A stretch of 64,000 nucleotides of DNA, from contig CAVYWK010000022.1 in assembly GCA_963772255.1 (NCBI GenBank), positions 242,525-306,524 on the forward strand. Reading direction: 5' to 3'. Positions 5,081 to 36,498 of the stretch are shown here, piece by piece. Origin of the DNA: an uncultured Acidobacteriota bacterium. Its GTDB lineage: Bacteria > Acidobacteriota > UBA4820 > DSQY01. The translations under genes and the position numbers were made by a program. Numbering within the stretch: the stretch's first letter is position 1; every line of letters begins with the position of its first letter. Under the pieces are notes generated by a model, which ran no database searches, was not told the DNA's origin, and was given only the letters and a program-made list of their open reading frames with translations.

Positions 5081-5157
5081 ATTGGGAGGGTGAACCCGAA
5101 GGAGACGATCGACCTCATCCTGACCGAATGCCTCGCTTTGGCCACAGGGAAAGGACC

Positions 5158-5910
5158 ATGAAGCGACGCACGTTCGTCCGCGTGGCAGGGCGCCTCACCC
5201 TCGCCGCAGCGGTGTTCCCTCGCACGACTCTCGCAAGAATCGCCGGGGAGATTTCCATCCCCGGCCACCCCAACCCGCAAGGAGGACGACCCATGGCTTA
5301 CGAAGCGAAAGTTCATCTGAAACCATCCGGACTCAAGGGAATTTCCGAGAACCAGATCGCCCAGCACTGGAAGCTCTACGAGGGATACGTGGCCAATACC
5401 AACGGCCTCATCACCGAGCTCGAGGCCATGCGGAAGGAGGGCAAGGGGGGGACGCCGATCTACGCAGACCGGCGGCGCCGGTTCGGGTTCGAATACAACG
5501 GCATGGTCCTCCACGAGTACTACTTCGGCAACCTCAAAACCGGCGTGGCCGCGCCCGGTGATGCCACGGCCTTCAAGAAGGCCCTGGCCGAGCAGTTCGG
5601 CTCCTTCGACGCCTGGAAGGAGGATTTCGTCAAGACCGGAGCCTCCCGCTCCATCGGCTGGGCCATCCTCTACCTCGACCCGGCCACAGGCACCCTCACC
5701 AACGATTTCATCCAGCTCCACGAGGAAGGCAACGTGGCCGGGTTCATCCCCGTCCTGGTCATGGATGTCTGGGAGCACGCCTACATGGTGGACCAGCCCG
5801 CCACGGGCCGCCCCGAATACATCAAGGCCTTCTTCGAGAACGTCAACTGGTCCGTCGCCGAGAAACGCTTCGACGAGGCCAAGGCAGGGAAGATCCCCGC
5901 CCGGTGGTGA
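5158..5910 (+). CDS. sod: Fe/Mn superoxide dismutase, divergent subtype, with in-frame twin-arginine leader (second RBS+ATG at 5293)
   Basis: Metal-ligand segments AQHWKLY, LHEYYF and DVWEHAY. Leader MKRRTFVR. A purine-rich RBS precedes each ATG. Confidence 0.88.
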   Translation: MKRRTFVRVAGRLTLAAAVFPRTTLARIAGEISIPGHPNPQGGRPMAYEAKVHLKPSGLKGISENQIAQHWKLYEGYVANTNGLITELEAMRKEGKGGTPIYADRRRRFGFEYNGMVLHEYYFGNLKTGVAAPGDATAFKKALAEQFGSFDAWKEDFVKTGASRSIGWAILYLDPATGTLTNDFIQLHEEGNVAGFIPVLVMDVWEHAYMVDQPATGRPEYIKAFFENVNWSVAEKRFDEAKAGKIPARW

Positions 5911-5988
5911 GGTCGGCATGGTGCACTGGGGACTAGACTCGGCGTGCGGACGGGTCGAGCCAAGACCGGAAGAGGATCGCGCATCGGC

Positions 5989-6014
5989 AAAGGCGGGCTT
6001 AGGCCCGCCTTTTT
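5989..6014. terminator. Intrinsic terminator, probably bidirectional
   Basis: AAAGGCGGGC-TTAG-GCCCGCCTTTTT between convergent genes. Confidence 0.8.
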
Positions 6015-6047
6015 CGTCATCGGAACCCGGCCCCGTCCTGCGGCCTG

Positions 6048-6539
6048 CTAGCGCTTGCGGGCTCGGGACCTGGGAGCGAGGAGCGTGCCCCGGCATCGGG
6101 GTGTTCCGCAGTGACAGGGGTACCGCGCCTTCACGGCGCGGGTGTGGCGGCCCTCGAGGTCGAGGGCGTAATCGTAGGTCAGTTCCTCGCCCGGCAGAAT
6201 GTCCCTCAGGGCTTCGATGAAAATGCGCCCCGCGTCCTCCACGGCCTGGCAGGAGGGTTCGCACGAGTGGTTGATGAAGCGGGCCTCGTTGCCCCGCACG
6301 GCACCGTCGATGACCGTGCGGTCATCCACCGCGAACAGCACCACGTGGATCGCGTCTCCGGGGGTGTCTTCATGGCGCCGGGAGGCTTCTTCGTGGGTGA
6401 TCCGCTGCCCCATGTACTCGAGGATCCTGGTCCCTGAAGCCATGGGGCGACGGGCGAAGACCCCCGTTCCATGTATGGGGGAGGTTCGCACTTCCCACTT
6501 CGGCGCACGAATCGTGACCGCGCCTCCCGAACCCCTCAA
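6048..6539 (-). CDS. SET-domain protein-lysine methyltransferase with post-SET Cys cluster
   Basis: HGTGVFA, RFINHSCEP, EELTYDY and CHCGTPRCRG. TTG start overlaps the upstream stop (TTGA). Confidence 0.9.
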   Translation of the reverse strand: MRGSGGAVTIRAPKWEVRTSPIHGTGVFARRPMASGTRILEYMGQRITHEEASRRHEDTPGDAIHVVLFAVDDRTVIDGAVRGNEARFINHSCEPSCQAVEDAGRIFIEALRDILPGEELTYDYALDLEGRHTRAVKARYPCHCGTPRCRGTLLAPRSRARKR

Positions 6540-7336
6540 CCTTCCTCCCGCTCCGCGGCGGCGGCTTCCATTCTTCGGCTGAGGGCGCACCCGAGGAATA
6601 GGAAAAGCGCGGTGTAGACCGCCAGGAACACGAGCGCGGCGGTTCGGGATTCGCTGGCCGCGAGCATCTGCTCGATCACCCCTTGGGGAGCCGTGTTGTG
6701 GGGCAGGAGCGTGTGCAGGTGGAACAGGAGCGTGAGCCTCTTGAGGAAGCCCGGAAGCCACGCCACCAGGTTCTCCCAGCCGAACCCGATGATGAGGCCC
6801 CAGAATAGGGGCTTCTTCACGGCCAAACCGATAAAGGCGAAGAGGGCGCCGTAGGCCAACACGCCCAGCCCCGTGGTGGCCAAGTCTCCAAGGAGGGTCC
6901 CCATTTCCCGGCCCAGCGCTCCGGCGCCGTCGATGGAGAGGGACAAGAGATAGGTGCCCGCGATGCTCAGCCAGCTCCCCGCCACCAGCACCGCCACCAT
7001 GGCGGCGACCTTGGCCAGGTAGACCCTCTCGCGCCGCACGGGGCGGCCGAAGAGGTAGGGCAGGGTCCCGCCCTCCACCTCGTCGGCGATGAGCGAGGTC
7101 CCGAAGAAGAGCGTGGAGAGGGGGACCAGGAAGCCGGTGATGTAGGCCAGCACCAGGATGCCGTAGAGGGTCACGCCTCCCAGCGGCACCTGGACGCCCC
7201 GCCATATGAGCAGGCGGAGGAAGAGGGCCGCGGCCCAGGGCACCGCCAGGAGGAGCCCGAACAGCCAGCCCTTCACCGAGCGGGTCATACCCCGCGCCGT
7301 GAAACTGAAAATCGCCCGCACCGCGCCGTCGATCAT
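6536..7336 (-). CDS. ABC transporter permease (ABC-2 type)
   Basis: About 6 TM segments and SLIADEVEGGTLPYLFGRPVRR (EAA-like loop). Start overlaps the upstream ATPase stop. Confidence 0.85.
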   Translation of the reverse strand: MIDGAVRAIFSFTARGMTRSVKGWLFGLLLAVPWAAALFLRLLIWRGVQVPLGGVTLYGILVLAYITGFLVPLSTLFFGTSLIADEVEGGTLPYLFGRPVRRERVYLAKVAAMVAVLVAGSWLSIAGTYLLSLSIDGAGALGREMGTLLGDLATTGLGVLAYGALFAFIGLAVKKPLFWGLIIGFGWENLVAWLPGFLKRLTLLFHLHTLLPHNTAPQGVIEQMLAASESRTAALVFLAVYTALFLFLGCALSRRMEAAAAEREEG

Positions 7337-8250
7337 CACGCCACCAGGTAGGAAAAGACCGCCGACAGGTTGTCGTCGAGCGGGTTCAGGAGGTCCAAGC
7401 CCAGTTCGCGCTCGGCCATGAGGTCGCCCAGGCGCAGGCGGAAGTCGCCCATGTCCGTCACCTCGGCGGTGAGGATCTTGGCGTCCGCCCCGAAGGTCAC
7501 CGACTGCACGCAGGGCCAACCGATGAGCGATGCCGCCAGCGCGCGGGCGTCCGTGCAGCGCACGAACACGTGCATGGGCCTGGAGGCGATGGCCTGCCGA
7601 ACCTGCGGCACTTCGCCGGAGGCCAGAAGCTTGCCGTGGTGCAGGAGGAGGATGCGGCTGGTCATGGCCTCCACCTCGTGGAGCATGTGTGAGGACACCA
7701 GCACGCACTTGCCCTCTTCGCCCCAGCGGCGGATGGCCGCGATGGCCTGGGCCCGGCTGGGCGGATCCATACCGTTGAGGGGCTCGTCCAGCAGGAGCAC
7801 CGGCGGGTCGTGCACGAGGGCCTGGGCCATCTTCACTTTCTGGCGCATACCCTTGCTCATGGCCCGGACCTTTTTGCCCGCCTCCTCGCCCAGGGCCACT
7901 TCGTTGCAGGCGCTTCGGGCGCGGTCCCGGGCGTCGGCGGGGGAGAGACCGGATAGGCGACCCAGGTAGGCCACGAATTCGAGACCCGTGACATCCTCGT
8001 AGAAGTGGTCGGGGCTGGGGCAGTATCCCATCTGCTTGAGGGCGTCGGGGTTGGCGAAAAGGGCCTTGCCGTCCAGGTCCACCGTCCCCGAACTAGGCTG
8101 CAAGAGCCCCGCCATGAGGTTGAGGAGCGTGCTCTTGCCCGCCCCGTTGACGCCCAGCAGGCCGGTGACGCCGGGCTCGATGGTGAGGGAGATGCGGTTC
8201 ACACCCACCACCAGCCCATACCATTTTGAGACATTCTGGACACGGATCAT
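7336..8250 (-). CDS. ABC transporter ATP-binding protein
   Basis: GVNGAGKST, MSKGMRQK, LLLDEP and SSHML. Confidence 0.93.
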   Translation of the reverse strand: MIRVQNVSKWYGLVVGVNRISLTIEPGVTGLLGVNGAGKSTLLNLMAGLLQPSSGTVDLDGKALFANPDALKQMGYCPSPDHFYEDVTGLEFVAYLGRLSGLSPADARDRARSACNEVALGEEAGKKVRAMSKGMRQKVKMAQALVHDPPVLLLDEPLNGMDPPSRAQAIAAIRRWGEEGKCVLVSSHMLHEVEAMTSRILLLHHGKLLASGEVPQVRQAIASRPMHVFVRCTDARALAASLIGWPCVQSVTFGADAKILTAEVTDMGDFRLRLGDLMAERELGLDLLNPLDDNLSAVFSYLVA

Positions 8251-9125
8251 TGCAGCACCGCCCGGCGCGAGAACCGGACCACCAGCACCGCCACACTGGC
8301 GGCGGCCAGCCCGATGAAGTAAAGCGCCACGAGGGCCGGATGGAGGTCGGCTGAGGCGAAGGGTGCCGGCGCCCCAAGGCAGAGGTGCGCCAGTGCCGTG
8401 AGCTCCCGGGAGAGGGAGAAGAACCATACGGAGGTGACCTTGGTGATGGCGTAGACGATCCCGCAGGCGATGTCGCCGAAGAACACCAGCGCGATGAAGG
8501 CCAGGCCCACCACCCGCGGGGAGCGGGCCATGGAGGACAGGGCCAGCGTGAAGAGCACGATCACGCCTGGACCGATGGCCGTGTAGAGCAGGGTGCCCCA
8601 CAGGATCCGGGCGTGGGAGAAGAGCCAGGCGGCGTCCCCCGTGAGCCCCACCTGGAAGATCACCAGGACCAGCGTGGGCAGGAGGGAGAAGATGAGGAGG
8701 AACGCGCCGAGTGCTGTGCCCTTGGCCCACAGGTACTGGAAGGAGGAGACGGCCCGGCCCAGGAACACGTCCAGGGTCATGTCCTTGCGGTCCCTGGACA
8801 CGAGGCCGGACCCCACCCAGATGGACACGATGAACAGCAGGAAGAGGTCGTACCCGTTGGTGAGCAGCTTGGCCACGAGTTTCTCGTCCACCACGGGGAG
8901 CTGTTTGACCAGGTCCTTGGCCCAGTCCGCGTCCCCGAGCTGGGTATGGAGGAACGTGAGCGCCACGCCGTACATCCACGGAAGGAGGGCCACCACCAGC
9001 AGGAACACGAAGACCCTGCGACGGAAGTACGGCAGGATCTCCTCCCGGAAGAGCGGCCACCACCGGCGGTTCAGGGGGAGGCGGTCTCCCGTGTAGACTT
9101 CGTAGCCCTGCTCATAGACCGGCAT
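8247..9125 (-). CDS. ABC transporter permease
   Basis: About 6 TM segments and GSGLVSRDRK loop. Lies between two ABC ATPases with overlapping stops and starts. Confidence 0.85.
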   Translation of the reverse strand: MPVYEQGYEVYTGDRLPLNRRWWPLFREEILPYFRRRVFVFLLVVALLPWMYGVALTFLHTQLGDADWAKDLVKQLPVVDEKLVAKLLTNGYDLFLLFIVSIWVGSGLVSRDRKDMTLDVFLGRAVSSFQYLWAKGTALGAFLLIFSLLPTLVLVIFQVGLTGDAAWLFSHARILWGTLLYTAIGPGVIVLFTLALSSMARSPRVVGLAFIALVFFGDIACGIVYAITKVTSVWFFSLSRELTALAHLCLGAPAPFASADLHPALVALYFIGLAAASVAVLVVRFSRRAVLQ

Positions 9126-10050
9126 GGTTGTCCCCGTTTTTTTGCAGGGCCGAGAGGAAAAGTTCCTCCAGGGAGGTCTCCTCGCGGACGAATCGGTTCA
9201 CGGCCCCTCCCGCTTCGCGCGCCACGCGGAACACCGCCCTTGCGCTCTCGCCGGGCGGGAGCACCAGCTTGAAGAGGCCATCCTTCCTGGGCTCGACGGC
9301 CCAGCCCGCTCCGGCGCACGCGGCGGTGAACGCTTCGCCTGGGCCATCGCCCTCCCACTGGACCAGGAAGTGCTGAGCCTCGCTGTGCGTCCAGTCCTCC
9401 ACCGAGACGCCCGCCTGGACCTGGCCCCTGTGGAGGATTACCACCTGTTTGCAGAGCGTTTCCACATCTTTGAGGATGTGGGTGGAGAGGAGGACGGTCT
9501 TGCCCTGTCTCACGATGTCCTGGCATAGGGCCAGCATTTCTTCCCGCCCCACGGGATCCATGCCCGAGGTGGGCTCGTCCAACAGCAGGAGGGCCGGGTC
9601 GTGCACGAGGGCGGCGGCCAGCTTGAGGCGCTGGCGCATGCCCGTGGAGAAGGTCTCGGCATTGCGGTACCGGCTCTCCTCGAGGCCGACATACTGCAGG
9701 ACCTCGTGGGCGCGTTCCACGGCGGCCCGGCGCGGAAGTCCGGAGAGCTCGCCCAGAAGGGCAACCCACGCCACGCCGCTCAATCCCGGCCTCAGGCCCT
9801 CCCGCTCGGGCACGTAGCCCACGCGGTCGCGCAATGCGGGCCCCAGGGAGCCGCTGTCCTGCCCCATGAGGCTGAATCGGCCCGCGCTGAGGGGCACGAG
9901 CCCGAGAAGGGCCTTGATGAGCGTGGACTTTCCCGCCCCGTTGGGGCCGAGCAGCCCCACGGCGCCACCCTCGATGTCGAAGGTCACGCCCCTCAGGGCT
10001 TCGGTGGATCCATAGCGCACGCGGATGTCGTGGATCGACAAGACGCTCAT
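9112..10050 (-). CDS. ABC transporter ATP-binding protein
   Basis: GPNGAGKST, FSTGMRQR, LLLDEPT and STHIL. Confidence 0.93.
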   Translation of the reverse strand: MSVLSIHDIRVRYGSTEALRGVTFDIEGGAVGLLGPNGAGKSTLIKALLGLVPLSAGRFSLMGQDSGSLGPALRDRVGYVPEREGLRPGLSGVAWVALLGELSGLPRRAAVERAHEVLQYVGLEESRYRNAETFSTGMRQRLKLAAALVHDPALLLLDEPTSGMDPVGREEMLALCQDIVRQGKTVLLSTHILKDVETLCKQVVILHRGQVQAGVSVEDWTHSEAQHFLVQWEGDGPGEAFTAACAGAGWAVEPRKDGLFKLVLPPGESARAVFRVAREAGGAVNRFVREETSLEELFLSALQKNGDNHAGL

Positions 10051-11681
10051 GCCGTTCCTCTACGCCGCGTGGAAGGGGAAGGTTTCATCCCGCGCTCCTC
10101 CTTGCTCCCCGGACCAGGCCCCAGCAAGCGCCGCACGGACCCCCGGTCGAACTTTTTCCACAGGCCCGAGAGCCGCGCCCGGCGCTCGCCTGCGATCTCC
10201 CGCTGGACCTGGATGAGTCCGCCCATATCGAGGAGGGCCTGAAGGGGAAGATCGCCCCTGGCGGCCATTTCGCGGGCCAGGAGTTCCACCCGCGCCGCTG
10301 CCACGACCGCGTCCTGGTGCTCTCCGAGACAGTCCTGAAACTTCACCATGGCCTCAAGGAGAGGATCGAGGCGCTTCCCAAGGGCCGGGGCGAAGAACTC
10401 GCTGGCATAGCGCAGCCGCTTGAAGAGGATGCGGAGCCGGTGCAGGGCCGCAGGCGTGGAGACCGCCTCCGGGCCGGCTCCGGAGACGGGTACGGAAACC
10501 CGGCCCTGTTTCACCACGCGCCGGTAAGCCTGCCTCAGAAAGAGCGGTCCCGCCGTATCGGCCCGCTGCGCCGAAAGACCCCGCGGCCATTGGGGTGGAG
10601 CGGAGCTAGCCAGCGCGTGAAGCCGCGCCATGAGGTTCGCAAACCGCTTCCCCTCCATGGCGCTCACCAGGGTCTCCCGGGCGGGTCCACGCCGGACCCA
10701 CAGCTCGGCCTCCAGGGCCATGGCCACGCGGGCCGCTTCGCCCAACCGCCCAGATTGGCCCCTGAGTCCCTCGATGAAGACATCCAGGTCCCGAACCTCG
10801 CCCAGCAAGCCTGCGAGCCAACCCAGCTCCAGGCGAAGCGATTCGGCGCGTTTCGGACCCAGCGCCGGCCCCAGGAGGTTGAGAGCTGATCGCGCCCTGC
10901 GGGTGGCGACCCGCAGGTCGTGGAGGTATTCCGGATCCAGGTCCAGGAGCGTTCCTTCGATATTGGCGCGCATCTTCAGGACCTGTCCGACCAGCACCTT
11001 CCTCGCCGCCAGCGCCAGCGGGTCCTCCGGGCGAACCCTGTTGGCCTCGGGGGCTTGGCCTCCGGGTTCGGGACGCCCGAGGGCCTCCAGCGCCAGGCCA
11101 CACGCATCCAGGGATGTGGGGACCAGGCCCAGGCGGTCTCGAAGGTACACCGCGAGGTAATCCGCTTCACCCGGGGCACCCTCCACCAGGCGCGCCGTGA
11201 GCAGGGTCCCCCTCATGGACTGCGTTGTTGGGGTGAACGGGGGGACGGCGGCGCGCAGGGTTTCGCAACAGAGATCGATGCGTCCGCCACCCGGGGCGGT
11301 TAAGGCCGCCTCCGTCCAAGTCAGCCTGAGCGTCAAAACCGGAAAAAGGGGCCTGGCCCCCGCGAGTGCAGCCGCCGATTCTGGAAGACCCGCGCCCTCC
11401 GAAGGTAACGGCCACGGCCCTTGTGCCATGCGGTAGGGCGCCTCCACCACGGAGCCCTCCGCCGGGTCGAAGCGAAAGAGCCAGGAGCCCGCCCTCGCCC
11501 GCAGCCTGAGGCGTGACCCGGCTCGCGCGAACCGGCCGTCCTGTGTGTCGAGAAACCGGTCCGCCACGACCGCCGCGGGGCCGCGCTCCACACCGTATCC
11601 CGCCCGGGACAGGGCCCCGAGAACTCCCTTCGGGGTCCGCCCGCTCGGGACTAAGAATCGGACCACGACCACGGCGTCCAC
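10047..11681 (-). CDS. CYTH-like + CHAD domain protein (polyphosphate-binding)
   Basis: CHAD motifs LHDLRVATRRARS, LGEVRDLDV, LHRLRILFKRLRY and QDCLGEHQD. N-terminus has DT..RLRLR typical of CYTH. Start may be GTG 11672. Confidence 0.88.
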   Translation of the reverse strand: MDAVVVVRFLVPSGRTPKGVLGALSRAGYGVERGPAAVVADRFLDTQDGRFARAGSRLRLRARAGSWLFRFDPAEGSVVEAPYRMAQGPWPLPSEGAGLPESAAALAGARPLFPVLTLRLTWTEAALTAPGGGRIDLCCETLRAAVPPFTPTTQSMRGTLLTARLVEGAPGEADYLAVYLRDRLGLVPTSLDACGLALEALGRPEPGGQAPEANRVRPEDPLALAARKVLVGQVLKMRANIEGTLLDLDPEYLHDLRVATRRARSALNLLGPALGPKRAESLRLELGWLAGLLGEVRDLDVFIEGLRGQSGRLGEAARVAMALEAELWVRRGPARETLVSAMEGKRFANLMARLHALASSAPPQWPRGLSAQRADTAGPLFLRQAYRRVVKQGRVSVPVSGAGPEAVSTPAALHRLRILFKRLRYASEFFAPALGKRLDPLLEAMVKFQDCLGEHQDAVVAAARVELLAREMAARGDLPLQALLDMGGLIQVQREIAGERRARLSGLWKKFDRGSVRRLLGPGPGSKEERGMKPSPSTRRRGTA

Positions 11682-11713
11682 TCCTTCAGTTCCCGGCCTT
11701 CAACGCTTCGTCC

Positions 11714-12499
11714 TCACCGGCGCACGCCGCGGACCAAGTCCGCAGGCATGGCTCTCGGAACCTTGCGCGTCTTGAGGTCGGCCACCACCGATTCCACGGG
11801 GTAGGAGAACCGTACGATCCGCGCCCGCGGATGCGCGCCTTCGCGCAGGTCCACGAGAGCATAGGAGCCTCGCGGGTCCCCGTCCACCGGCCGCCCCACC
11901 GAACCGCTGTTGACCACCAGGACCCCCGCCACGGTGCGGACGAAGGGGATGTGCGAATGGCCGCATGCCAGGAGCGCGGGTCGCTCCACGCCGAGCTTCC
12001 CCAAAAGGGCCGGCTCGGTGATGCTGGGAAAGATGTAGTCCGTGTCCGCCAGGGGACTCCCGTGGACCACCAGGATGTCCGCTCCACCCGCGGAGAACCG
12101 AAGCGACCCGGGGAGCGCGGCCATCCAGGCCAGCTCGGCGGGTCCCAGAACCTTGGCCGTCCAGGCCAGAGGGGCCCGCTTCCTGTGGCGACTGGCGCGC
12201 CGGAGCCGCTTGGGGGCGGACGCCAGGGCGCAGACCTTCCGGTCTACATTGCCGGCCAACGTGGGGAGCCGCTGCTCCATGAGGAGCCGAATGACCTCTG
12301 TGGGGTGGGGGCCTCCGCCCACCAGGTCCCCCGCGCACAACACCCGATCGGCACCGGCCGCGGAGGCATGCTCCAGGGCCACGCACAGGGCGGGAAAATT
12401 GGCGTGGATGTCCGATAGAAAGGCAATTTTCATGGGTTCTTTCGGCGGGGCGAGGTGCTCGGTCTCTACATCTCCCGCTCCCCCGCTCGACCCCCTCAC
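11714..12499 (-). CDS. Calcineurin-like metallophosphoesterase
   Basis: SDIHAN, GDLVG, GNVD, HGSP, GHSH and NSGSVG. ATG 12499 overlaps the upstream stop; alternative ATG 12433. Confidence 0.9.
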   Translation of the reverse strand: MRGSSGGAGDVETEHLAPPKEPMKIAFLSDIHANFPALCVALEHASAAGADRVLCAGDLVGGGPHPTEVIRLLMEQRLPTLAGNVDRKVCALASAPKRLRRASRHRKRAPLAWTAKVLGPAELAWMAALPGSLRFSAGGADILVVHGSPLADTDYIFPSITEPALLGKLGVERPALLACGHSHIPFVRTVAGVLVVNSGSVGRPVDGDPRGSYALVDLREGAHPRARIVRFSYPVESVVADLKTRKVPRAMPADLVRGVRR

Positions 12500-12987
12500 C
12501 TGCCCGGCGGCATCTTGCTGGCCAGGACCATGAGGAGGAGTTCGATTCGGGCCAGGTCCTTGACCCGCCCCTTCTTGGGCTTGACCTTGAGCCCGCCGAA
12601 AGCCGCGGCCATGGCCGTCAGAGTCCGGGCGCTCGGCAGGAGCGCCTTTTCGCCGGGAAGGCTGTCCCCGTCCAAGAAGAGGGCGAGGGACGCGGCCTCG
12701 CCGTCCAGGCGGTCCACCACTCCGGACCCCACCTCTTTAAGGACGGACCGAACCTTGGAGAGTTCCACGGCCACCTGCCGTCCCAGCTCTTGGCGGGAAA
12801 CCTTGGGCGTCTTGCCCAGCGCTTTGGCCTTTTTCTTCGCAGGGGCCTTCCTCTTGGGAGTCTTGCCGCGGACCTTGTTTCCCTGGGTGGCGGGGGATTT
12901 CTTCTCGCGTTTTTCGGGCGGGGCCGTGCCGGCTCCGGCGGATTCCGCGGTGATACTAGCCTCTGGCGTCATGAATGATGACCTCAA
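12496..12987 (-). CDS. Hypothetical Lys/Arg-rich basic protein
   Basis: Coupled at both ends (TTGA, ATGA). Contains EKREKK..KTPKRKAPAKKKAKALGKTPK and KVKPKKGRVKD. Confidence 0.7.
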   Translation of the reverse strand: MRSSFMTPEASITAESAGAGTAPPEKREKKSPATQGNKVRGKTPKRKAPAKKKAKALGKTPKVSRQELGRQVAVELSKVRSVLKEVGSGVVDRLDGEAASLALFLDGDSLPGEKALLPSARTLTAMAAAFGGLKVKPKKGRVKDLARIELLLMVLASKMPPGR

Positions 12988-13685
12988 CCTTTCTCTCTGC
13001 GTGCCAAAACCTGCTGGACGCGGCCCTTAAGGTCGGCATCGAGGGCCGGGATCGTCCGGTTGGCATTCACCACCTCGAAACCGTATCGCTTCTGCATTCT
13101 AACAAATTCCTGGCGGATTTTCCGCTGGTACCTCAAGAAACTTCCGAACCAGTCTCTCCCCAGCCCGCAGTCCATACCCGACTCCCAGTAGTCCAGCTCG
13201 GCGTGGGTCTGAAACGTCCTGTCCACGAGGGTTTTCGAGGAGACCATGAGGTAGAACACGGCCTCCGGCACGGGTGCCATGGCGTAAATCGACTCCACCC
13301 ACTCGGGCTCGGCGCCGCGGACGATGTCGCGCGCCATGAGCGTGTAGATGTAGCGGTCCGCCAGGACCACGAATCCCGCTCTCAGGGCCGGCACGATCTG
13401 GTTTTCGAGTTGGTCGTAGAAGTCCGTGGCATAAAAGAGACTCAGTGTCCTGGGGCTGAGAATGTTCCCTTGCTTGGCCTTCTCGAGCTCCGCCGCCACC
13501 AGGTTCGAGCGCTTGAGCCCCACCTGGGCCACGGCGTGACCCTGCTCCTCGAGCCACTGGCGCAGGAGACCGATGTGCGTGGACCGTCCGGAGGAGTCGG
13601 GACCCTCTAGGACGATGAGTGTCCCGGTGAGTTTGCCGGCGTCCACGCCCGGGGGGGCGATGTGGTAAAAGCGCTGGGGGCTCAT
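12984..13685 (-). CDS. Thymidylate-kinase-fold protein with degenerate P-loop (candidate regulatory PPK3-type subunit)
   Basis: LEGPDSSGRST (Walker A Lys->Arg) and LADRY. Paralogous to the upstream gene; ATGA overlap. Confidence 0.8.
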   Translation of the reverse strand: MSPQRFYHIAPPGVDAGKLTGTLIVLEGPDSSGRSTHIGLLRQWLEEQGHAVAQVGLKRSNLVAAELEKAKQGNILSPRTLSLFYATDFYDQLENQIVPALRAGFVVLADRYIYTLMARDIVRGAEPEWVESIYAMAPVPEAVFYLMVSSKTLVDRTFQTHAELDYWESGMDCGLGRDWFGSFLRYQRKIRQEFVRMQKRYGFEVVNANRTIPALDADLKGRVQQVLARREKG

Positions 13686-14365
13686 TGGGCAAACCTCTTG
13701 TGAAAGAGGGCCAGGTCGATGCGCTCTTGGATGAGTTGGCGCACGCGTGTCTGCTGGGCATGCACCGAGAGCGTCGCGTCCAAGACCGTAAACCCAAACT
13801 CCTCCACCATGCTCATATATTGGTCCAGGACCCTTCCCTGGAAAATCCTGAAGCTCTCCGTGATGTCTGGGCTCAACCCCAGGTCCATGCCGGCCTCGAA
13901 GTACTTGAGCTGGGGGCGCCCCTCCAGGATGCGGCCCAGGGCCACCTCCAGCGGCAGCCTGAAGAAGAAGGTGATGTCCGGGATCCTCGCGAACCCGTAC
14001 ATCTTCCGAAGCCACGCCTCGTCACAGCCTCTCGTGGCGTCTCGGGCGAAGGAGGTGAAAATGTACCGGTCGCACAGGACGATGTAGCCTGCCCTCAGGA
14101 GAGGGAGCATCTGCCGCTCGTACCGGTCGGCAAAATCCGTGGCGTGGATGAGGCTGAAGGTCGTGGGGGTCAGGAGCTGACGTTTCTTGCCCTTCTTGGT
14201 GGCTTCCCGCACCAGGGAAGAGCTGTTCCACTCCGTGAAAAAGACGCGGTACCCCTTGCTTTTGAGCCACTGGTGAACCAGGTGGATCTGCGTCGATTTG
14301 CCCGATCCGTCCAGGCCCTCCACGGCGATGAGCTTGCCCGGGAGCTTCTCGTCTCTCGGCCTCAC
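13682..14365 (-). CDS. Thymidylate-kinase-fold protein with intact P-loop (candidate catalytic PPK3-type polyphosphate kinase subunit)
   Basis: VEGLDGSGKST and LCDRY, but FTEWNS in place of the TMK REPG motif. GTGA overlap with the ppx stop. Confidence 0.8.
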   Translation of the reverse strand: MRPRDEKLPGKLIAVEGLDGSGKSTQIHLVHQWLKSKGYRVFFTEWNSSSLVREATKKGKKRQLLTPTTFSLIHATDFADRYERQMLPLLRAGYIVLCDRYIFTSFARDATRGCDEAWLRKMYGFARIPDITFFFRLPLEVALGRILEGRPQLKYFEAGMDLGLSPDITESFRIFQGRVLDQYMSMVEEFGFTVLDATLSVHAQQTRVRQLIQERIDLALFHKRFAQ

Positions 14366-15981
14366 GGTTTTCCCCCTTTTCTCCGCCCGCTGGTTGAGAC
14401 CTCCACCGACAGGCCGTAGGTCTTTTTTAGGAGATCGGACTTCCGCTTGAGCGCCCAACCCTCAAGGAGAAGATCCCCGTCTCCGTCGAGGGTGAGTTTC
14501 AGAGTATGTCCCACCGTTCTGGCCAAGACCCCGGAAACCTTCTGACGATGCTCCCGGTCTAGGGCGTCCGCGAGTCGCAGAAGGGCGGCCAGCTTGCTGG
14601 CCACCGCTCGCCCTTGAGGGTCCAGGGCCGAGTAGGACTCGTGTTCCAACTTGGGCATGTTACGCCGATGGTACCGGGCCACATTGGCGGCCAATTGGAC
14701 CTCCCGGGGGGCGAACCCGGCGAGGTCGGCGTGGGCGATGAGGTAGAGGCTGTGCTTGTGGTGGCGGCTGTAGCTCACGAAGGTTCCGATGTCATGGAGG
14801 AGCGCCGCCGCGTGCAGGACGGCACGCTCTCCATCTCCCATCTGGTGAAGGGGCCGGAGTTGATCGAAGAGACTCAGGGCCAGGCGCGCCACATGAATCC
14901 CGTGGGCCTCGTCGAACCGGTATTTGCGCCCGATGGCGACAGCCGCCTGGTGAACCTGCTGCTCCCTCTTCCCCGAGGACGGAAGACCCGTTCCTTGGTG
15001 GTCCGCCATGTCGAGAACGATTCCCTCACGGACCCCTACAAAGGGCACGGTGATCTCCTTGAGTCCGGAAAGGCGGGCCAGTCGCTCGTACACGATGGCC
15101 GCCGGAAGGATGACGTCGGCCCGGTCCTCCCTCAGGCCCAACTGGGTGACGCGCTCGTGGTAGCTCAAGCGAGCAAGTTGCCGGATGAGTCGAGACAGCG
15201 TGCTCACGGGCACTCTCGACACGCCGTCCGGGTCCGGGACCGCCATGGCCATCTGGGCGAGGGTCTCCATGTTTCCCCCCGTGGCGACGAACCCCACAGG
15301 GCTCTGGCCCACCAATCCCGCGGGAATCCGGAGCGTCTCGGCGTATTCCTGCAGCAGCCTGAGAACACCCTGGGGATCCGCCGACCCGCCCGCCAGTTCT
15401 TCCAGGAGACGAACCGATCCCATGGTGTGGGATTCACTCCACAAGACGCCCGTTTGGTCGGCGAGGGAAACCTCCACGCTGCCCCCGCCCAGGTCCGCCA
15501 TCATCCAGACGTCCGAGCCGAGTTCCAGGCGGCTCGCGACCGCCCGGCAGACGAGCCGGGCCTCTTCCGATCCGCTGATGATCTCCAGGTCCATGCCCGA
15601 TGCCCGCCGGACGCGGGCGAGGAAGCTCTTCCCGTTGGAACTCTCCCGCAGGGCGCTGGTGGCTACCGCCCGGTGCCGCGTGACCCCCAGTTCCCGCATG
15701 ATGCCGGCGTATTCTTTCAAGACCTTCACCGCGGCCGTCATCACGCCCGGGGACAGCCTGCCGCTCACAAAAACGCCGTGTCCCAGGCGCACGGGACTCC
15801 TGTCGGCCCGGATCACGGTATAGCTCTGGGGAGAGGAGAACTCGGCCACGAGGAGGCGTATCGCGTTGGAACCCACATCCACGGCAGCGGCGCGAAGGGG
15901 AAACGCGCGGTGAGGCCCCGGGTTCTTCCTGGGTTTCGTGGGGCGGCGCACCGCGTTGACTTTCTCACCCATCTTGGCCAC
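14362..15981 (-). CDS. ppx: Exopolyphosphatase / pppGpp 5'-phosphohydrolase (Ppx/GppA with HD domain)
   Basis: DVGSNAIRL, SGSEEARL, DLGGGSVEV, LLHDIG and RLADALD. Confidence 0.95.
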   Translation of the reverse strand: MAKMGEKVNAVRRPTKPRKNPGPHRAFPLRAAAVDVGSNAIRLLVAEFSSPQSYTVIRADRSPVRLGHGVFVSGRLSPGVMTAAVKVLKEYAGIMRELGVTRHRAVATSALRESSNGKSFLARVRRASGMDLEIISGSEEARLVCRAVASRLELGSDVWMMADLGGGSVEVSLADQTGVLWSESHTMGSVRLLEELAGGSADPQGVLRLLQEYAETLRIPAGLVGQSPVGFVATGGNMETLAQMAMAVPDPDGVSRVPVSTLSRLIRQLARLSYHERVTQLGLREDRADVILPAAIVYERLARLSGLKEITVPFVGVREGIVLDMADHQGTGLPSSGKREQQVHQAAVAIGRKYRFDEAHGIHVARLALSLFDQLRPLHQMGDGERAVLHAAALLHDIGTFVSYSRHHKHSLYLIAHADLAGFAPREVQLAANVARYHRRNMPKLEHESYSALDPQGRAVASKLAALLRLADALDREHRQKVSGVLARTVGHTLKLTLDGDGDLLLEGWALKRKSDLLKKTYGLSVEVSTSGRRKGGKP

Positions 15982-16001
15982 CCCCCTCGCGGGTGTCTTT
16001 C

Positions 16002-16030
16002 AGTATAGCCCGCCAGAGTGCTGGACGCAA
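16002..16030 (-). promoter_or_regulatory. Putative sigma70 promoter of the ppx operon
   Basis: Minus strand TTGCGT-17 nt-TATACT, about 20 bp upstream of the GTG. Confidence 0.6.
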
Positions 16031-16230
16031 AAAGGGACCTGCTTTGTTATCCCAGGCCCCCCTTCCTGGGGCGGCCCTAACTTGATCTGCGGTCTCCCTG
16101 GAGGGGAGCTTCCAGGGTCATCATCGGGGGGCTCGAGAGCAGTTGGCCGCCCCCTGCCTTCCGCTGGGTCTCGGGGGTGAAAAGCTGGCGCGAGGTGCAC
16201 TCTTGGAGACTCCTTCGGCGTGGTCCATTA

Positions 16231-16280
16231 TGGTATACTCGGTGGGTCAGGAGAGGGCCCTTTTCCACATCTGTGGAAAT
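16231..16280 (+). promoter_or_regulatory. dnaA promoter (extended -10) with two downstream DnaA boxes
   Basis: TGG-TATACT at 16231-16239. Inverted boxes TTTTCCACA (16261-69) and TGTGGAAAT (16272-80) fit autoregulation. Confidence 0.6.
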
Positions 16281-16293
16281 ACCTGTGAAAAAC

Positions 16294-17634
16294 ATGCCGG
16301 CTGATCTTTGGTCAAAGGTACTGAAATCGGTGAAAGGACGGGTCCCGGAGGGGACCTACAACACGTGGTTTGCTCCCCTGAAACCCGTCCAGGTTTCCGG
16401 GTGCCAGATCCGCGCCGTGGCACCCAATCCCCTGTTTATCGAATGGATCGAAAAGCACTACGCAGGGCTTTTTGGAGAGGTGGGGAGGGACCTGAACCTG
16501 CCGGACCTCATGGTCGAACTCCTGGAGGCGCCCCCGGAGGACCTTATCCTCGCACCCCCCGCATCGGGCAAGCCCAAGGAAAGCAAGGCCTCAGCGAAGA
16601 AATCTTCGGATGTCCCCGACCTCGGATTCAACCCCCTCTACCGTTTTGAGGCTTTCGTGGAGGGTCCCTCGAACCGGTTTGCCTACGCCGCATGCAAGGC
16701 AGTCGCGCAGAGTCCCTCGAAGGCCTATAACCCTCTTTATGTCTACGGGGGGGTCGGGCTGGGGAAAACCCACCTCATGCAGTCCATCGGCCATTTCATC
16801 CGGGACAACTTTCCCGCGCTCAAGGTCTCCTATCTGTCGGCTGAGCGCTTCATGAACGAGATGATCAGCGCCATCGGAAACAAATCTACGCCGGACTTCA
16901 GGAACAGGTACCGCCAGATGGATGTCCTTCTCCTGGATGACGTGCAATTTTTGGCCAACAAGACGGGCACGCAGGAGGAGATCTTTCATACCTTCAACGC
17001 GCTCCACGAGGCCCGCAAACAGATCGTCATCAGCAGCGACTGTCCTCCCCGTGATCTCCAGAGTATCGAGGAGCGTCTTCGGTCCCGGTTCGAGTGGGGC
17101 CTCATTGCCGATATTCAGCCCCCCGAACTTGAGACCAAGGTGGCGATCCTCTACAAGAAAGCAGAGGCCTATCACGTCAAGCTTCCCGAAGACGTGGCCC
17201 TCTTTGTTGCCAGTCGCATCAAGACCAACATCCGCGAGTTGGAAGGCTGTTTGGTACGCCTCATCGCCATGTCGTCATTCAGGGACCTGCCCATCAATCT
17301 CGACCTTGCCCATGAAACCCTCCACACCCTCTTTCGGGAGGATGGGCGATCGGTGACGGCCGAGGGGATTCAAAAGCAAGTCGCGGCCTATTTCAGAATG
17401 AAGGTTCAGGATCTGAAATCTACCAGCCACAAGGCTCAGGTGGTTCTTCCCCGGCAGGTCGCCATGTACCTCTGCAAAGAACTCACGGGGGCATCACTCC
17501 CCGAAATAGGCCGGAAGTTCGGCGGAAAGCACCACACCACCGTTCTTCACTCCATCCGAAAGGTGGAGCAGAAAATGGCCTCCGATCCGCAGTTTCAACA
17601 GCAGATCCACACCTTTATGCGTTCGTTTTGTTGA
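16294..17634 (+). CDS. dnaA: Chromosomal replication initiator
   Basis: YNTWF, NPLYVYGGVGLGKTHL, LLDDVQF, SRFEWGL, NIRELEG and domain IV HHTTVLHS. Confidence 0.98.
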   Translation: MPADLWSKVLKSVKGRVPEGTYNTWFAPLKPVQVSGCQIRAVAPNPLFIEWIEKHYAGLFGEVGRDLNLPDLMVELLEAPPEDLILAPPASGKPKESKASAKKSSDVPDLGFNPLYRFEAFVEGPSNRFAYAACKAVAQSPSKAYNPLYVYGGVGLGKTHLMQSIGHFIRDNFPALKVSYLSAERFMNEMISAIGNKSTPDFRNRYRQMDVLLLDDVQFLANKTGTQEEIFHTFNALHEARKQIVISSDCPPRDLQSIEERLRSRFEWGLIADIQPPELETKVAILYKKAEAYHVKLPEDVALFVASRIKTNIRELEGCLVRLIAMSSFRDLPINLDLAHETLHTLFREDGRSVTAEGIQKQVAAYFRMKVQDLKSTSHKAQVVLPRQVAMYLCKELTGASLPEIGRKFGGKHHTTVLHSIRKVEQKMASDPQFQQQIHTFMRSFC

Positions 17635-17830
17635 GGTTTCCCAATGATTGTGGAAAGGGTCCTGTGCATGATCTGTGGAAAACCCACTCCTTCGTGGCCT
17701 GGCCGGTTTCCACACAGGAGACATGTGGATTGTCCACACAGTTTTAGTCGAGTTTTTTGCGTGCCCGGCCAAGGCCGTTTGGCACATTTCCACACTTCCA
17801 CAGGCCCTACTGGCTCTACTGGTTAAGAGG
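17635..17830. other. oriC: DnaA-box cluster with DnaA-trio-like element
   Basis: About nine box-like 9-mers at 17649, 17663, 17674, 17706, 17724, 17730, 17778, 17786 and 17794. T-rich patch at 17741-59. The last box is followed by GGCC-CTACTGGCTCTACTGG. Confidence 0.85.
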
Positions 17831-17840
17831 AGAGGCTTCT

Positions 17841-18964
17841 ATGAATATTCGTGTAGACGCTAAAGCGCTGCAGACCGAGTTGAGCCTGGCCCTGGGCATC
17901 GTGGAAACCAAGGCCACCATTCCGATCCTTTCCAACCTTCTCATCCGGGCGGAGGGCGACCACCTCGAACTCGCCGCCACGGACCTGGAGGTCACGCTCA
18001 AAACGCGATGTCCCGCAGAGGTGACCCAAGCAGGTGCCATCACTGTTCCGGCTAAAACCTTCGGCCCCATCGTGAAGGCCTTCGCCGGCCAGGATGCGCC
18101 GCTGGCCATTCACTCCACGCCTGAGAACAAGCTCTTCATCCAACCCGAGGGCGGAAAACAGGAGTACCTGTTGCACACCCTTCCGGAAGAGGACTATCCG
18201 ACCCTCCTTCAGGCGGCCGATGCCGAGTCTCTCACGGTGCCTTCCGAAGCTCTCAGGCGCTGTGTCCAGGAAGCTCTGGTTTCCGTGGGAACGGACGACA
18301 ACCGCTACTCCATCCGGGGTGCGCTCATGATCCTGGAGCCCGAGGGCCTCACGGTGGTATCCACGGATTCGCACCGGCTCACATTTACGCAGTGGAGCGG
18401 ATCCCTAGACGTCCAGGCCAGCCGACGGGCGCTTGTGCCGCGGAAGACACTTTTGGAGTTTCTCAAACTGGAGAGCGGCGGCGAGGTCAAACTCTCCTTC
18501 AAAGATAACCATATCTTTATGGAATTGGGTAGCCGGCTCTTGTACAGCCGGCTCTTGGACTCGTCTTTCCCAGCTTATGAGCGCGTCTTGCCCGCCGATT
18601 CGGACAAGAGGGCCCTGGTCAACCGAGCCTCGTTCCTGGAGCGCTTGAAGCGCGTGGGTATGGTCGCCGAGACGAAGACACGCGCCGTGACCCTCCTGTT
18701 CAGCCCGGGCGGGACCGTCGAGATGGTGGTCCGGAACCAGGAGACCGGGGACGAGGGGCGCGAGTACTTGGTTTGTGAGAGCTATGAAGGTGAGGCCGTG
18801 ACGATCTGTTTCAATGTGGACTTCCTCATCGAGTTTCTCTCGGTGAGTTCGGCGGAGCAGGTGAGCCTGGGCATGCGAGATCCCGGTGCTCAAACGGTGT
18901 TCCAACCGGTCCGCCCCGAGTCGGAGGGGATCCATAAATACGTGGTCATGCCCTTGAGGTTGGA

Positions 18965-18968
<4 letters not shown>
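17841..18968 (+). CDS. dnaN: DNA polymerase III beta clamp
   Basis: TIPILSN, AATDLE, STDSHRL, FPAYERV, FNVDF and YVVMPLRL. RBS gaggagagg. Confidence 0.97.
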
Positions 18969-22445
<3,477 letters not shown>

Positions 22446-22549
22446 GCGGTAGCGGGGAGCAGGAAGCGGGGAGCGGGTGAGGATTCCCCACGGCTCCCAG
22501 CTCACCGCTCCCGGCTCCCGAACGAAGGAAAGCCCTCAGAGGAAGAAAA

Positions 22550-36487: not shown

Positions 36488-36498
36488 GGCCCAACGCC

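What the first reader, a model, noticed from the sequence alone, without database searches (positions are those of the whole stretch)
6048..15981. 11-gene coupled polyphosphate operon: ppx - TMK-like x2 - basic protein - phosphoesterase - CYTH/CHAD - ABC(2+2) - SET
Seen: one strand, nine of ten junctions overlap (GTGA, ATGA, TTGA, TGATG or 14 bp), one ~32-bp gap, one upstream promoter and one terminal hairpin. Known: Ppx degrades polyP, CHAD binds polyP, and CYTH/calcineurin-like phosphoesterases co-occur with CHAD. No ppk1 or canonical ppk2 is in the window. Inference: a self-contained polyP synthesis, storage and turnover system with extra components (basic protein, ABC, SET) that I do not recognise as a described arrangement.
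Basis: partly seen in the sequence, partly recalled or inferred. Interest (0 to 1): 0.82.

Follow-up and report, generated by a model that had tools for sequence, protein, structure and literature searches.

The report
PPK3 polyphosphate operon beside ABC module
The eleven tightly packed genes are real, but they are two units placed side by side: a six-gene polyphosphate module built on the recently described two-subunit kinase PPK3 (still labelled "dTMP kinase" in databases), which carries an undescribed small basic partner protein, and a separate ABC-exporter/SET module that also occurs without it.

Summary
There are eleven co-directional minus-strand genes (6048-15981). Nine of ten junctions overlap if the longest ORFs are taken, one gap is 32 bp, and there is a plausible promoter and a terminal hairpin.

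The organism is an uncultured Acidobacteriota bacterium, and the cluster lies head-to-head with dnaA.

The two "TMK-like" genes are the catalytic and regulatory subunits of the family-3 polyphosphate kinase PPK3 (Hofmann et al., JBC 2026):
- The first is 48% identical to the S. tokodaii cPPK3 homologue (PDB 2plr/5h70).
- The second has Walker-A Lys replaced by Arg and has lost the basic polyP-cleft residues.
- A canonical tmk lies elsewhere in the genome.
- PPK1 is absent from the whole order.

The functional unit is six genes: ppx, cPPK3, rPPK3, a small basic protein, a metallophosphoesterase, and a CYTH-like/CHAD protein. The last five recur as a block in several Acidobacteriota families.

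The ABC (2+2) genes and SET are a separate module. In a sister genus they sit next to dnaA with the same flanks and no polyP genes. In another genus the two sets are unlinked.

The new element is the small basic protein. It has an invariant KPxKGRxxD motif, about 740 family representatives, no Pfam family and no PDB fold match, and it almost always follows rPPK3.

The core is known; this is a modest new variant.

The parts
16002..16030 (-). Promoter-like site TTGCGT (16030-16025), 17-nt spacer, TATACT (16007-16002), upstream of ppx in the region shared with divergent dnaA
   Evidence: Read from the sequence. Not reported by the consensus scan because the -35 hexamer matches only 3 of 6. No transcript data.
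14362..15981 (-). ppx: exopolyphosphatase (Ppx/GppA family with HD-like domain III). The likely start is ATG 15972.
   Evidence: PF02541 161 bits and PF21447 108 bits. TIGR03706 217 bits, below its 307-bit equivalog cut-off. Adjacent to the PPK3 pair in most relatives.
13682..14365 (-). cPPK3: catalytic subunit of the family-3 polyphosphate kinase. It has a dTMP-kinase fold, Walker A GLDGSGKST, and keeps KKGKKR, DRYER and the lid R/K residues.
   Evidence: E 9e-60 and 48% identity to S. tokodaii STK_15430 (2plr/5h70). Groups with it in the tree at 94/91. 61-92% identical copies occur in relatives.
12984..13685 (-). rPPK3: non-catalytic partner subunit. Walker A is GPDSSGRST (Lys to Arg), KKGKKR is replaced by EKAKQG, DRYER by DQLEN, and the lid basic residues are lost. 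DRY after strand 3 is kept.
   Evidence: E 6e-35 to 2plr. 38% identity to cPPK3. Motif comparison. Forms a separate rPPK3 clade. Follows cPPK3 in 78 of 80 loci; the other two contigs (L109, L121) end right after cPPK3.
12496..12987 (-). Small basic protein (pI 10.6). It has a disordered Lys/Pro/Ala-rich tail of about 60 residues, then a three-helix domain with an invariant K-P-x-K-G-R-x-x-D loop. It is an undescribed PPK3-associated family.
   Evidence: No Pfam or NCBIfam hit. Alignment A2. 743 representatives at E<=1e-3. AF2 pLDDT 69 overall, 75-87 in the helical part. No PDB fold match. Directly after rPPK3 in 33 of 33 loci, 29 of 30 genomes and 5 of 6 sampled metagenome contigs.
11714..12499 (-). 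YfcE-type calcineurin-like metallophosphoesterase. The DxH, GD, GNxD and GHxH motifs are present. The likely start is ATG 12433.
   Evidence: PF12850 86.5 bits. PDB 3rqz E 4e-16. Conserved after the small protein across Acidobacteriota families.
10047..11681 (-). CHAD polyphosphate-binding protein with a degenerate CYTH-like N-terminal domain of about 225 residues
   Evidence: PF05235 181 bits. CHAD structures 6qv7/6qv5 at E 3e-17. N-terminal domain: CYTH E 0.043, ExExK lost, model pLDDT 64, best fold hit the TTM enzyme 6yp4 at E 0.04.
9112..10050 (-). ABC ATPase 1 (DrrA/GldA-like), first gene of the separate A-P-A-P exporter module
   Evidence: PF00005 96 bits. TIGR01188 196 bits, below cut-off. 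The module occurs without polyP genes in L134, L135, L138, L136 and L175.
8247..9125 (-). ABC-2 permease 1
   Evidence: PF12679/PF12730, below cut-off. Narrow family of 46 clusters, labelled by JGI as COG 'multi-copper enzyme maturation permease'. Present in family genomes that lack PPK3.
7336..8250 (-). ABC ATPase 2
   Evidence: PF00005 101 bits. Order conserved in all copies.
6536..7336 (-). ABC-2 permease 2
   Evidence: PF12679 36.9 bits and PF12730 36.8 bits.
6048..6539 (-). SET-domain protein with NHSC, ELTYDY and a post-SET Cys cluster (TTG start overlapping the permease stop). It travels with the ABC module, not with the polyP genes.
   Evidence: PF00856 88 bits. Present after ABCp2 in G001, G005 and in genus g6, which has no polyP block. 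Absent in G004 and in genera g3 and g4.
5989..6012 (-). Terminal stem-loop (10-bp stem, 4-nt loop, A-tract before and UUU after). Probably a bidirectional terminator between SET and convergent SOD.
   Evidence: Sequence. Fold: -32.9 kcal/mol for the 73-nt stretch, z -1.7.

Best explanation
Two modules lie in tandem and are probably read from one promoter in this genus.

Module 1 (10047-15981, six genes) is a polyphosphate system built on the family-3 polyphosphate kinase.
- cPPK3 reversibly transfers the terminal phosphate between ATP/ADP and polyP. rPPK3 (Walker-A Lys to Arg, polyP-cleft residues lost) acts as a non-catalytic scaffold/activator, as in the Sulfolobus alpha2beta2 enzyme.
- Ppx trims polyP to Pi.
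- The CHAD protein binds the polymer or granule.
- The YfcE-type metallophosphoesterase probably clears short phosphoanhydride products or acts as a phosphatase in the same pathway. This step is inferred.
- The small basic protein is a dedicated PPK3 partner. My best guess is a polyP-binding adaptor that tethers the kinase to the polymer through its KPxKGRxxD loop and Lys-rich tail. This step is also inferred.

Module 2 (6048-10050) is an ABC-2 exporter with two ATPases and two permeases, plus a SET methyltransferase. Its substrate is unknown. It is ancestral to this Acidobacteriota family and functionally separable from polyP metabolism.

The polyP block is present between dnaA and the ABC module in some genera and absent from that site in others.
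For: PPK3 identity:
- cPPK3 matches the S. tokodaii cPPK3 homologue at E 9e-60 and 48% identity and groups with it in the tree.
- A canonical tmk lies at G000:C23 (149 bits).
- The c+r pair is found in 78 of 80 loci from many phyla; the other two contigs end right after cPPK3.
- PPK1 is absent in all 23 genomes of the order and present in three phylum members that lack PPK3.

Conserved block: cPPK3-rPPK3-small-MPE-CHAD recurs in families f1, f2 and f20, with partial versions in f13 and f89.

CHAD as a polyP binder: hits to 6qv7/6qv5 and bioRxiv 10.1101/567040.

Separateness of the ABC/SET module:
- Genus g6 has SIS, SOD, SET, ABCp2, a2, p1, a1, then divergent dnaA, with no polyP genes (L134, L135, L138).
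- In G009 the PPK3 block (contig C5) and the ABC module (C19) are unlinked.
- Family f2 and all other phyla have PPK3 without this ABC module.
- A distant MAG has the same A-P-A-P module with no polyP genes nearby.

Co-transcription in the window: ATGA overlap at the CHAD/ABCa1 junction.
Against: - No transcript or biochemical data exist for this organism.
- Bacterial rPPK3 keeps the DRY arginine that the paper says is replaced in archaeal rPPK3. Its inactivity therefore rests on the Walker-A and basic-residue changes alone.
- The genome also has PPK2 genes, so PPK3 need not be the polyP synthase. The Sulfolobus enzyme favours ATP formation from polyP.
- The ten-gene arrangement, with short or overlapping CHAD-ABC junctions, is kept across three genera at 57-90% protein identity. 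That leaves room for a functional tie.
- The roles given to the small protein and the phosphoesterase are inference from linkage only.
Confidence: 0.78

Rival explanations
1. The eleven genes form one integrated polyphosphate machine. On this view the ABC (2+2) transporter moves polyP, phosphate or a counter-ion, and SET methylates the Lys-rich protein to tune polyP binding.
For: - Translational-coupling overlaps run through the whole cluster.
- The ten-gene order is kept in genera g1, g3 and g4.
- A metagenome contig shows the same CHAD-ABCa1 junction (L177).
Against: - ABC+SET occur without any polyP genes in genus g6, at the same chromosomal site.
- The polyP block and the ABC module are on different contigs in G009.
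- PPK3 blocks in family f2, other Acidobacteriota families and about ten other phyla never carry this ABC module.
- SET is missing in g3, g4 and one genome of the same genus, although the Lys-rich protein is there. SET is present in g6, where the Lys-rich protein is absent.
Confidence: 0.12
2. PPK3 here is only a polyP-consuming ADP kinase that acts as an emergency ATP buffer. On this view polyP is made by the PPK2 enzymes encoded elsewhere, so the operon is a utilisation module and not a self-contained synthesis system.
For: - SaPPK3 strongly favours ATP formation and makes polyP only at high ATP/ADP.
- The genome has three PPK2 domains at two loci.
- ppx and a phosphoesterase in the operon are both degradative.
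Against: - PPK2 enzymes also generally favour nucleotide phosphorylation (background in PMC12995831).
- PPK1 is missing from the whole order, so some reversible kinase must build the polymer.
- Genus g6 keeps neither PPK1 nor PPK3. This shows that the lineage can do without PPK3, but not which enzyme makes polyP.
Confidence: 0.3
3. The two TMK-like proteins are ordinary (deoxy)nucleotide monophosphate kinases that happen to lie next to ppx.
For: Both exceed the Pfam Thymidylate_kin cut-off. The first just passes TIGR00041 (87.4 bits against 83.25). Databases name them dTMP kinase.
Against: - A much better canonical tmk exists elsewhere in the genome (149 bits).
- The pair is far closer to the PPK3 clade than to canonical TMK.
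- dTMP-binding residues are not conserved in PPK3 according to the paper.
- The second copy lacks the Walker-A lysine.
- Linkage to ppx, CHAD or Pho genes is constant.
Confidence: 0.03

Closest known systems
SaPPK3 operon of Sulfolobus acidocaldarius (sixA-ppx-saci_2019 cPPK3-saci_2020 rPPK3; Hofmann et al., JBC 2026, PMC12995831) and the S. tokodaii cPPK3 homologue STK_15430 (PDB 2plr/5h70)
   Same: - The gene order ppx-cPPK3-rPPK3 is the same.
- The catalytic subunit is 48% identical to STK_15430.
- There is a second, degenerate paralogue 38% identical to the first.
- A canonical tmk lies elsewhere in the genome.
- There is no PPK1.
- A CHAD protein is in the neighbourhood.
   Different: - The host is a bacterium (Acidobacteriota).
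- rPPK3 is degenerate in the Walker-A lysine and the basic cleft, but keeps the DRY arginine.
- There is no SixA.
- Extra conserved genes are present: a small KPxKGRxxD protein, a YfcE-type phosphoesterase and a CYTH-like domain on CHAD.
- PPK2 genes are also present in the genome.
- The cluster lies next to dnaA.
E. coli YgiF-type CYTH(TTM)-CHAD proteins and stand-alone CHAD polyP-binding proteins (Lorenzo-Orts et al., bioRxiv 10.1101/567040; PDB 6qv5/6qv7)
   Same: The architecture is the same: a C-terminal CHAD domain (181 bits) preceded by a beta-rich domain of about 225 residues. It is encoded in an operon with a polyP kinase and a polyP phosphatase.
   Different: - The N-terminal domain lacks the ExExK signature.
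- It fails the Pfam CYTH cut-off.
- It gives only a marginal fold match to a TTM enzyme.
- If it is a TTM domain, it is probably catalytically dead.
ABC-2 type exporters with DrrA/GldA-like ATPases and NosY/COG1277-like permeases
   Same: The Walker A, Walker B and signature motifs are intact in both ATPases. The permeases are of the ABC2_membrane_2/4 type.
   Different: The module has a fixed A-P-A-P four-gene arrangement of unknown substrate. It reaches no equivalog model. It is not tied to polyP genes outside three genera.

Membership tests
PPK3 (family-3 polyphosphate kinase, cPPK3+rPPK3) | The catalytic subunit is a close homologue of Saci_2019/STK_15430 and is distinct from canonical dTMPK | tested here: met
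   E 9e-60 and 48% identity to 2plr/5h70, against E 1e-15 or worse for canonical TMKs. It groups with 2plr in the tree at 94/91, with the own-genome canonical TMK as a distant outgroup (long-branch warning applies).
PPK3 (family-3 polyphosphate kinase, cPPK3+rPPK3) | An adjacent second dTMPK-fold paralogue that lacks catalytic and polyP-binding residues | tested here: met
   Adjacent with an ATGA overlap and 38% identical. Walker A Lys is replaced by Arg. KKGKKR, DRYER and the lid basic residues are lost in the three rPPK3 sequences aligned (window plus two Verrucomicrobiota).
PPK3 (family-3 polyphosphate kinase, cPPK3+rPPK3) | The arginine of the DRX motif is replaced in rPPK3, as reported for archaeal rPPK3 | tested here: not met
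   The window rPPK3 and two Verrucomicrobiota rPPK3 keep L-A-D-R-Y. No archaeal rPPK3 sequence could be fetched for a direct comparison.
PPK3 (family-3 polyphosphate kinase, cPPK3+rPPK3) | A canonical dTMP kinase is encoded elsewhere, and PPK1 is absent | tested here: met
   Canonical tmk at G000:C23:47359-47934 (149 bits). No PPK1 in the own genome or in 22 relatives of the order. PPK2 is present, unlike the majority described in the paper.
PPK3 (family-3 polyphosphate kinase, cPPK3+rPPK3) | Neighbourhood of polyP genes (PPX, CHAD and others) | tested here: met
   ppx lies upstream and CHAD downstream in the window and in relatives.
PPK3 (family-3 polyphosphate kinase, cPPK3+rPPK3) | Reversible ATP:polyP phosphotransferase activity of the heteromer | not testable with these tools
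   This needs purified proteins.
CYTH / triphosphate tunnel metalloenzyme | N-terminal ExExK motif and a Pfam CYTH match | tested here: not met
   The motif reads V-V-V-R-F in the window and is likewise lost in family relatives. PF01928 scores 14.1 bits against a cut-off of 23.2.
CYTH / triphosphate tunnel metalloenzyme | Eight-stranded beta-tunnel fold | tested here: inconclusive
   The AF2 model has mean pLDDT 64, and residues 48-113 are unmodelled. The best Foldseek hit is the TTM enzyme 6yp4 at E 0.04, probability 0.92 and TM 0.38-0.40. No hit reaches E<=0.001.
CHAD polyP-binding domain | Pfam CHAD match and similarity to solved CHAD domains | tested here: met
   PF05235 scores 181 bits against a cut-off of 25.6. 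6qv7 at E 2.7e-17 and 6qv5 at E 1.9e-12.
Ppx/GppA exopolyphosphatase | Ppx-GppA ASKHA domains plus HD-like domain III | tested here: met
   PF02541 161 bits and PF21447 108 bits. The TIGR03706 'exo_poly_only' model scores 217 bits, below its 307-bit cut-off, so the Ppx versus GppA assignment is by context.
Single 11-gene functional system | Components co-occur (are gained and lost together) across relatives | tested here: not met
   ABC+SET occur without polyP genes in genus g6. The two sets are unlinked in G009. PPK3 blocks occur without the ABC module everywhere outside family f1.

The most novel reading that the evidence does not exclude
The small basic protein is an undescribed third component of many bacterial PPK3 systems. 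It has a three-helix domain with an invariant KPxKGRxxD loop, and in this lineage also a histone-H1-like Lys-rich tail. On this reading it binds polyP and/or the cPPK3-rPPK3 heteromer. It would set where and on what the kinase works, for example by tethering it to polyP granules or to the nucleoid near the origin, or by priming chain growth.
Probability: 0.4. Interest if true: 0.55.

Novelty: new variant of a known kind. Interest (0 to 1): 0.4.

Why it matters
- It shows that PPK3, introduced as an archaeal enzyme found in 'a few bacteria', is very common in uncultured bacteria. More than 590 stretches matched in species-representative genomes, and at least 8000 clusters at 90% identity were found. 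All are labelled dTMP kinase.
- In this Acidobacteriota order PPK3 takes the place of PPK1.
- It defines a conserved bacterial accessory set: the small KPxKGRxxD protein, a YfcE-type phosphoesterase and a CYTH-like/CHAD protein. These give concrete candidates for how PPK3 is targeted and regulated.
- It is also a caution. Overlapping stop/start codons across eleven genes do not by themselves prove one functional system.

Tried and rejected
- Supplementary tables of the PPK3 paper are not held. I could not check whether this lineage, or the small protein, is in its neighbourhood tables.
- An archaeal rPPK3 sequence for direct comparison could not be reached. The homologue search with cPPK3 was saturated by bacterial hits.
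- Fold search of the small protein gave no match at E<=0.001. Pfam scans of 15 family members gave only scattered chance hits.
- I compared the dnaA-proximal intergenic regions of genera with and without the polyP block, to see whether one promoter was inherited. They are too divergent to say.
- I considered and rejected SET acting on the Lys-rich protein. Their presence and absence do not match across relatives.
- I considered the ABC module as a phosphate or polyP transporter. No Pst-like or other phosphate-related signature was found, and the module is independent of polyP genes.

Full report
**Observation.** All eleven ORFs lie on the minus strand between 6048 and 15981, in a window of about 67% G+C.

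Pfam and NCBIfam give the following:
- Ppx-GppA with domain III.
- Two Thymidylate_kin proteins.
- A 163-aa protein with no family.
- A Metallophos_2 phosphoesterase.
- A 544-aa CHAD protein.
- Two ABC ATPases, each followed by an ABC-2 permease.
- A 163-aa SET protein.

With the longest ORFs, the ten junctions are -4, -4, -4, -4, +32, -4, -14, -4, -1 and -4 bases. Three starts are uncertain:
- ppx probably starts at ATG 15972.
- The small protein possibly starts at ATG 12972.
- The phosphoesterase probably starts at ATG 12433, because the Pfam match and all relatives begin near residue 19-23. That would make its junction a 62-bp gap.

A TTGCGT-17-TATACT promoter-like site lies 16030-16002. 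A 10-bp stem-loop at 5989-6012 separates SET from a convergent SOD gene. The CYTH label is not supported at the sequence level: E 0.043, 14 bits against a cut-off of 23.

**Setting.** The closest public record is 'MAG: Acidobacteriota bacterium' (L054, the same contig as G001:C1). Upstream and divergent from ppx lie dnaA, dnaN, recF, gyrB and gyrA, so the cluster abuts the replication-origin region. The assembly is 86% complete. It has no PPK1, and three PPK2 domains at two other loci.

**What the TMK-like pair is.** Hofmann et al. (JBC 2026, PMC12995831; preprint 10.1101/2024.08.28.610084) showed the following:
- Two 'thymidylate kinases' next to ppx in Sulfolobus acidocaldarius form a heteromeric, reversible polyphosphate kinase, PPK3.
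- It has a catalytic subunit (cPPK3) and a regulatory subunit (rPPK3).
- Bacterial homologues exist, Acidobacteriota among them, with PPX, CHAD, SixA and Pst neighbours.

The evidence here fits that description:
- The first window gene hits the S. tokodaii cPPK3 homologue (PDB 2plr/5h70) at E 9e-60 and 48% identity over its full length. Canonical TMKs score E 1e-15 or worse.
- The second gene hits the same structure at E 6e-35 and is 38% identical to the first.
- In a maximum-likelihood tree the archaeal protein joins the bacterial cPPK3 clade (94/91). rPPK3 forms its own clade (91/80). The genome's canonical tmk (G000:C23, 149 bits) is a distant outgroup (with a long-branch caveat).
- cPPK3 keeps GLDGSGKST, KKGKKR, DRYER and the lid R/K residues. 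rPPK3 reads GPDSSGRST, EKAKQG and DQLEN, and has lost the lid basic residues. The same pattern is seen in two Verrucomicrobiota rPPK3s.

This matches the paper's statement that the polyP-cleft residues are conserved in cPPK3 and not in rPPK3. One difference is that bacterial rPPK3 keeps the DRY arginine, which the paper reports as replaced.

**Distribution.**
- The pair is present in 23 of 41 sampled relatives, covering most of the family and all of the sister family.
The best 80 are dominated by Verrucomicrobiota but span more than ten phyla. rPPK3 follows cPPK3 in 78 of the 80; the other two contigs end right after cPPK3.
- The protein database holds at least 8000 clusters at E<=1e-20. Where a source names them, the name is dTMP kinase.
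- PPK1 is absent from all 23 genomes of the order. It is present in three phylum members that lack PPK3. This is the complementary pattern the paper describes.

**Which genes belong together.** I ran tblastn with the eleven proteins against 20-kb regions from relatives.
- Genera g1, g3 and g4 of the family keep dnaA <> ppx-cPPK3-rPPK3-small-MPE-CHAD-ABCa1-p1-a2-p2. SET is present only in some g1 genomes.
- Genus g6 (G010, G022, G014) has no PPK3 block. It keeps SIS, SOD, SET, ABCp2, a2, p1, a1 directly divergent from dnaA-dnaN-recF-gyrB.
- So the six polyP genes are present or absent as a block between dnaA and an otherwise unchanged ABC/SET module.
- In G009 (genus g5) the PPK3 block and the ABC module are on different contigs.
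- The sister family f2 has cPPK3-rPPK3-small-MPE-CHAD and no such ABC module.
- None of the 79 loci outside the window's genus carries the ABC module.
- A distant MAG has the same A-P-A-P module beside AmmeMemoRadiSam genes, with no polyP genes within 10 kb.
- The ABCp1 family is small (46 clusters) and carries only a generic COG label.

The ABC/SET genes are therefore a separate module. In the window's genus they are probably co-transcribed with the polyP genes (ATGA overlap at the junction). They are not a component of the polyP system.

**The small basic protein.**
- It has no Pfam or NCBIfam family.
- Homologues align over about 100 residues, with R75 and a K-P-x-K-G-R-x-x-D loop invariant.
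- A profile search of 1.84 billion representatives finds 743 members at E<=1e-3 and 509 at E<=1e-10, mostly 100-180 aa.
- The AlphaFold model (pLDDT 69 overall, 75-87 in the domain) shows a disordered Lys-rich tail (residues 1-59) and three helices, with the invariant loop between helices 2 and 3.
- Foldseek finds nothing in the PDB.

Its linkage to PPK3 is strong:
- All 33 hits in the fetched loci lie directly after rPPK3.
- In 301 Acidobacteriota genomes it occurs in 30. In 29 of those it follows cPPK3-rPPK3, and in the last it lies between ppx and CHAD.
- Of six members sampled from the metagenome representatives, five follow an rPPK3 gene. One of these lies in a ppx-TMK-TMK-small-PhoB/R-like-PorinO_P-PstS locus, and one in a Verrucomicrobiota-type TMK-TMK-small-ROK-His_Phos_1-HD locus.
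- The sixth is a DUF498 fusion elsewhere.

It is absent from most Verrucomicrobiota PPK3 loci. It is thus a frequent but not universal PPK3 partner. The main text of the PPK3 paper does not name it among the neighbours it lists, though that list ends 'among others'.

**Other module-1 genes.**
- The phosphoesterase has the DxH/GD/GNxD/GHxH motifs and resembles YfcE-type enzymes.
- The CHAD domain matches solved polyP-binding CHAD domains (bioRxiv 10.1101/567040).
- Its N-terminal 225 residues lack ExExK in this family, although a sister-family copy keeps E-V-E-R-K.
- The model of that domain is poor (pLDDT 64). Its best fold match is a TTM enzyme at E 0.04. The domain is at most a degenerate, probably inactive CYTH relative.
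- All six module-1 proteins are basic, with pI 8.6-10.6.

**Mechanism.**
- Shown by homology: a PPK3 heteromer, a Ppx and a CHAD polyP binder are encoded together.
- Established for the Sulfolobus enzyme and inferred here: reversible ATP/ADP-polyP phosphotransfer, activated by the non-catalytic subunit, with net direction set by the ATP/ADP ratio.
- Inferred from linkage only: the small protein as a polyP- or PPK3-binding adaptor, and the phosphoesterase as a helper hydrolase.
- Open: whether PPK3 or the PPK2 enzymes build the polymer in vivo.

**Verdict.** The core is a bacterial member of the published PPK3 system, so it is no longer an unrecognised arrangement. The ABC and SET genes are a juxtaposed, separable module. 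The new content is the conserved Acidobacteriota accessory set, above all the small KPxKGRxxD protein family.

Earlier notes of this scan reached the same PPK3 assignment for other bacterial loci. They are not independent evidence.

Noticed in passing
window 15982-25054: The polyP operon lies head-to-head with dnaA-dnaN-recF-gyrB-gyrA, next to the replication-origin region. Relatives show TTATCCACA-type DnaA boxes beside the dnaA start. In genus g6 the ABC module occupies the same head-to-head position.
   Followed up: partly
L175 (NCBI JAZDOK010000100.1) 4109-12553; window 28652-37392: In a distant MAG the same A-P-A-P ABC-2 module sits divergent from an AmmeMemoRadiSam set (radical SAM, Memo/AMMECR1 fusion, large spermine-synthase-like protein). 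The window carries such a set about 19 kb from its ABC module. This is only two data points.
   Followed up: no
L071 11449-13409, L115, L178 2106-4161: In Verrucomicrobiota the PPK3 pair is followed by a ROK-family sugar kinase (a possible polyP-glucokinase). A SixA-like His_Phos_1 protein and a Ppx or a stand-alone Ppx domain III/HD protein often follow. This is a different accessory set from the Acidobacteriota one.
   Followed up: partly
JGI 3300056388 contig of P0030 (no DNA held): The locus reads ppx-TMK-TMK-small protein-response regulator-histidine kinase-PorinO_P-PstS. Here a PPK3 operon, including the small protein, is embedded in a Pho-type phosphate-uptake neighbourhood.
   Followed up: no
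L176 6001-6717 (P0081): One member of the small-protein family is fused to a C-terminal DUF498 domain and is not near any PPK3 genes. The domain can therefore occur in another context.
   Followed up: partly
protein database; genome contigs: Bacterial cPPK3 homologues number at least 8000 clusters at 90% identity and more than 590 stretches in species representatives. Where a source names them, the name is 'dTMP kinase'. This is far more than the 'few bacteria' stated in the PPK3 paper.
   Followed up: partly
G000:C1:244870-246307 and G000:C23:93050-93754: The genome has two adjacent PPK2 domains, which may be one two-domain protein or tandem genes, and a third PPK2 gene. Most PPK3 organisms in the paper have neither PPK1 nor PPK2.
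   Followed up: no
window 5000-16400: The terminator-like scan found 16 sites against 6.7 +/- 2.5 in shuffles, but all lie inside coding regions. The real terminal hairpin at 5989-6012 was missed because its U-run is short.
   Followed up: partly
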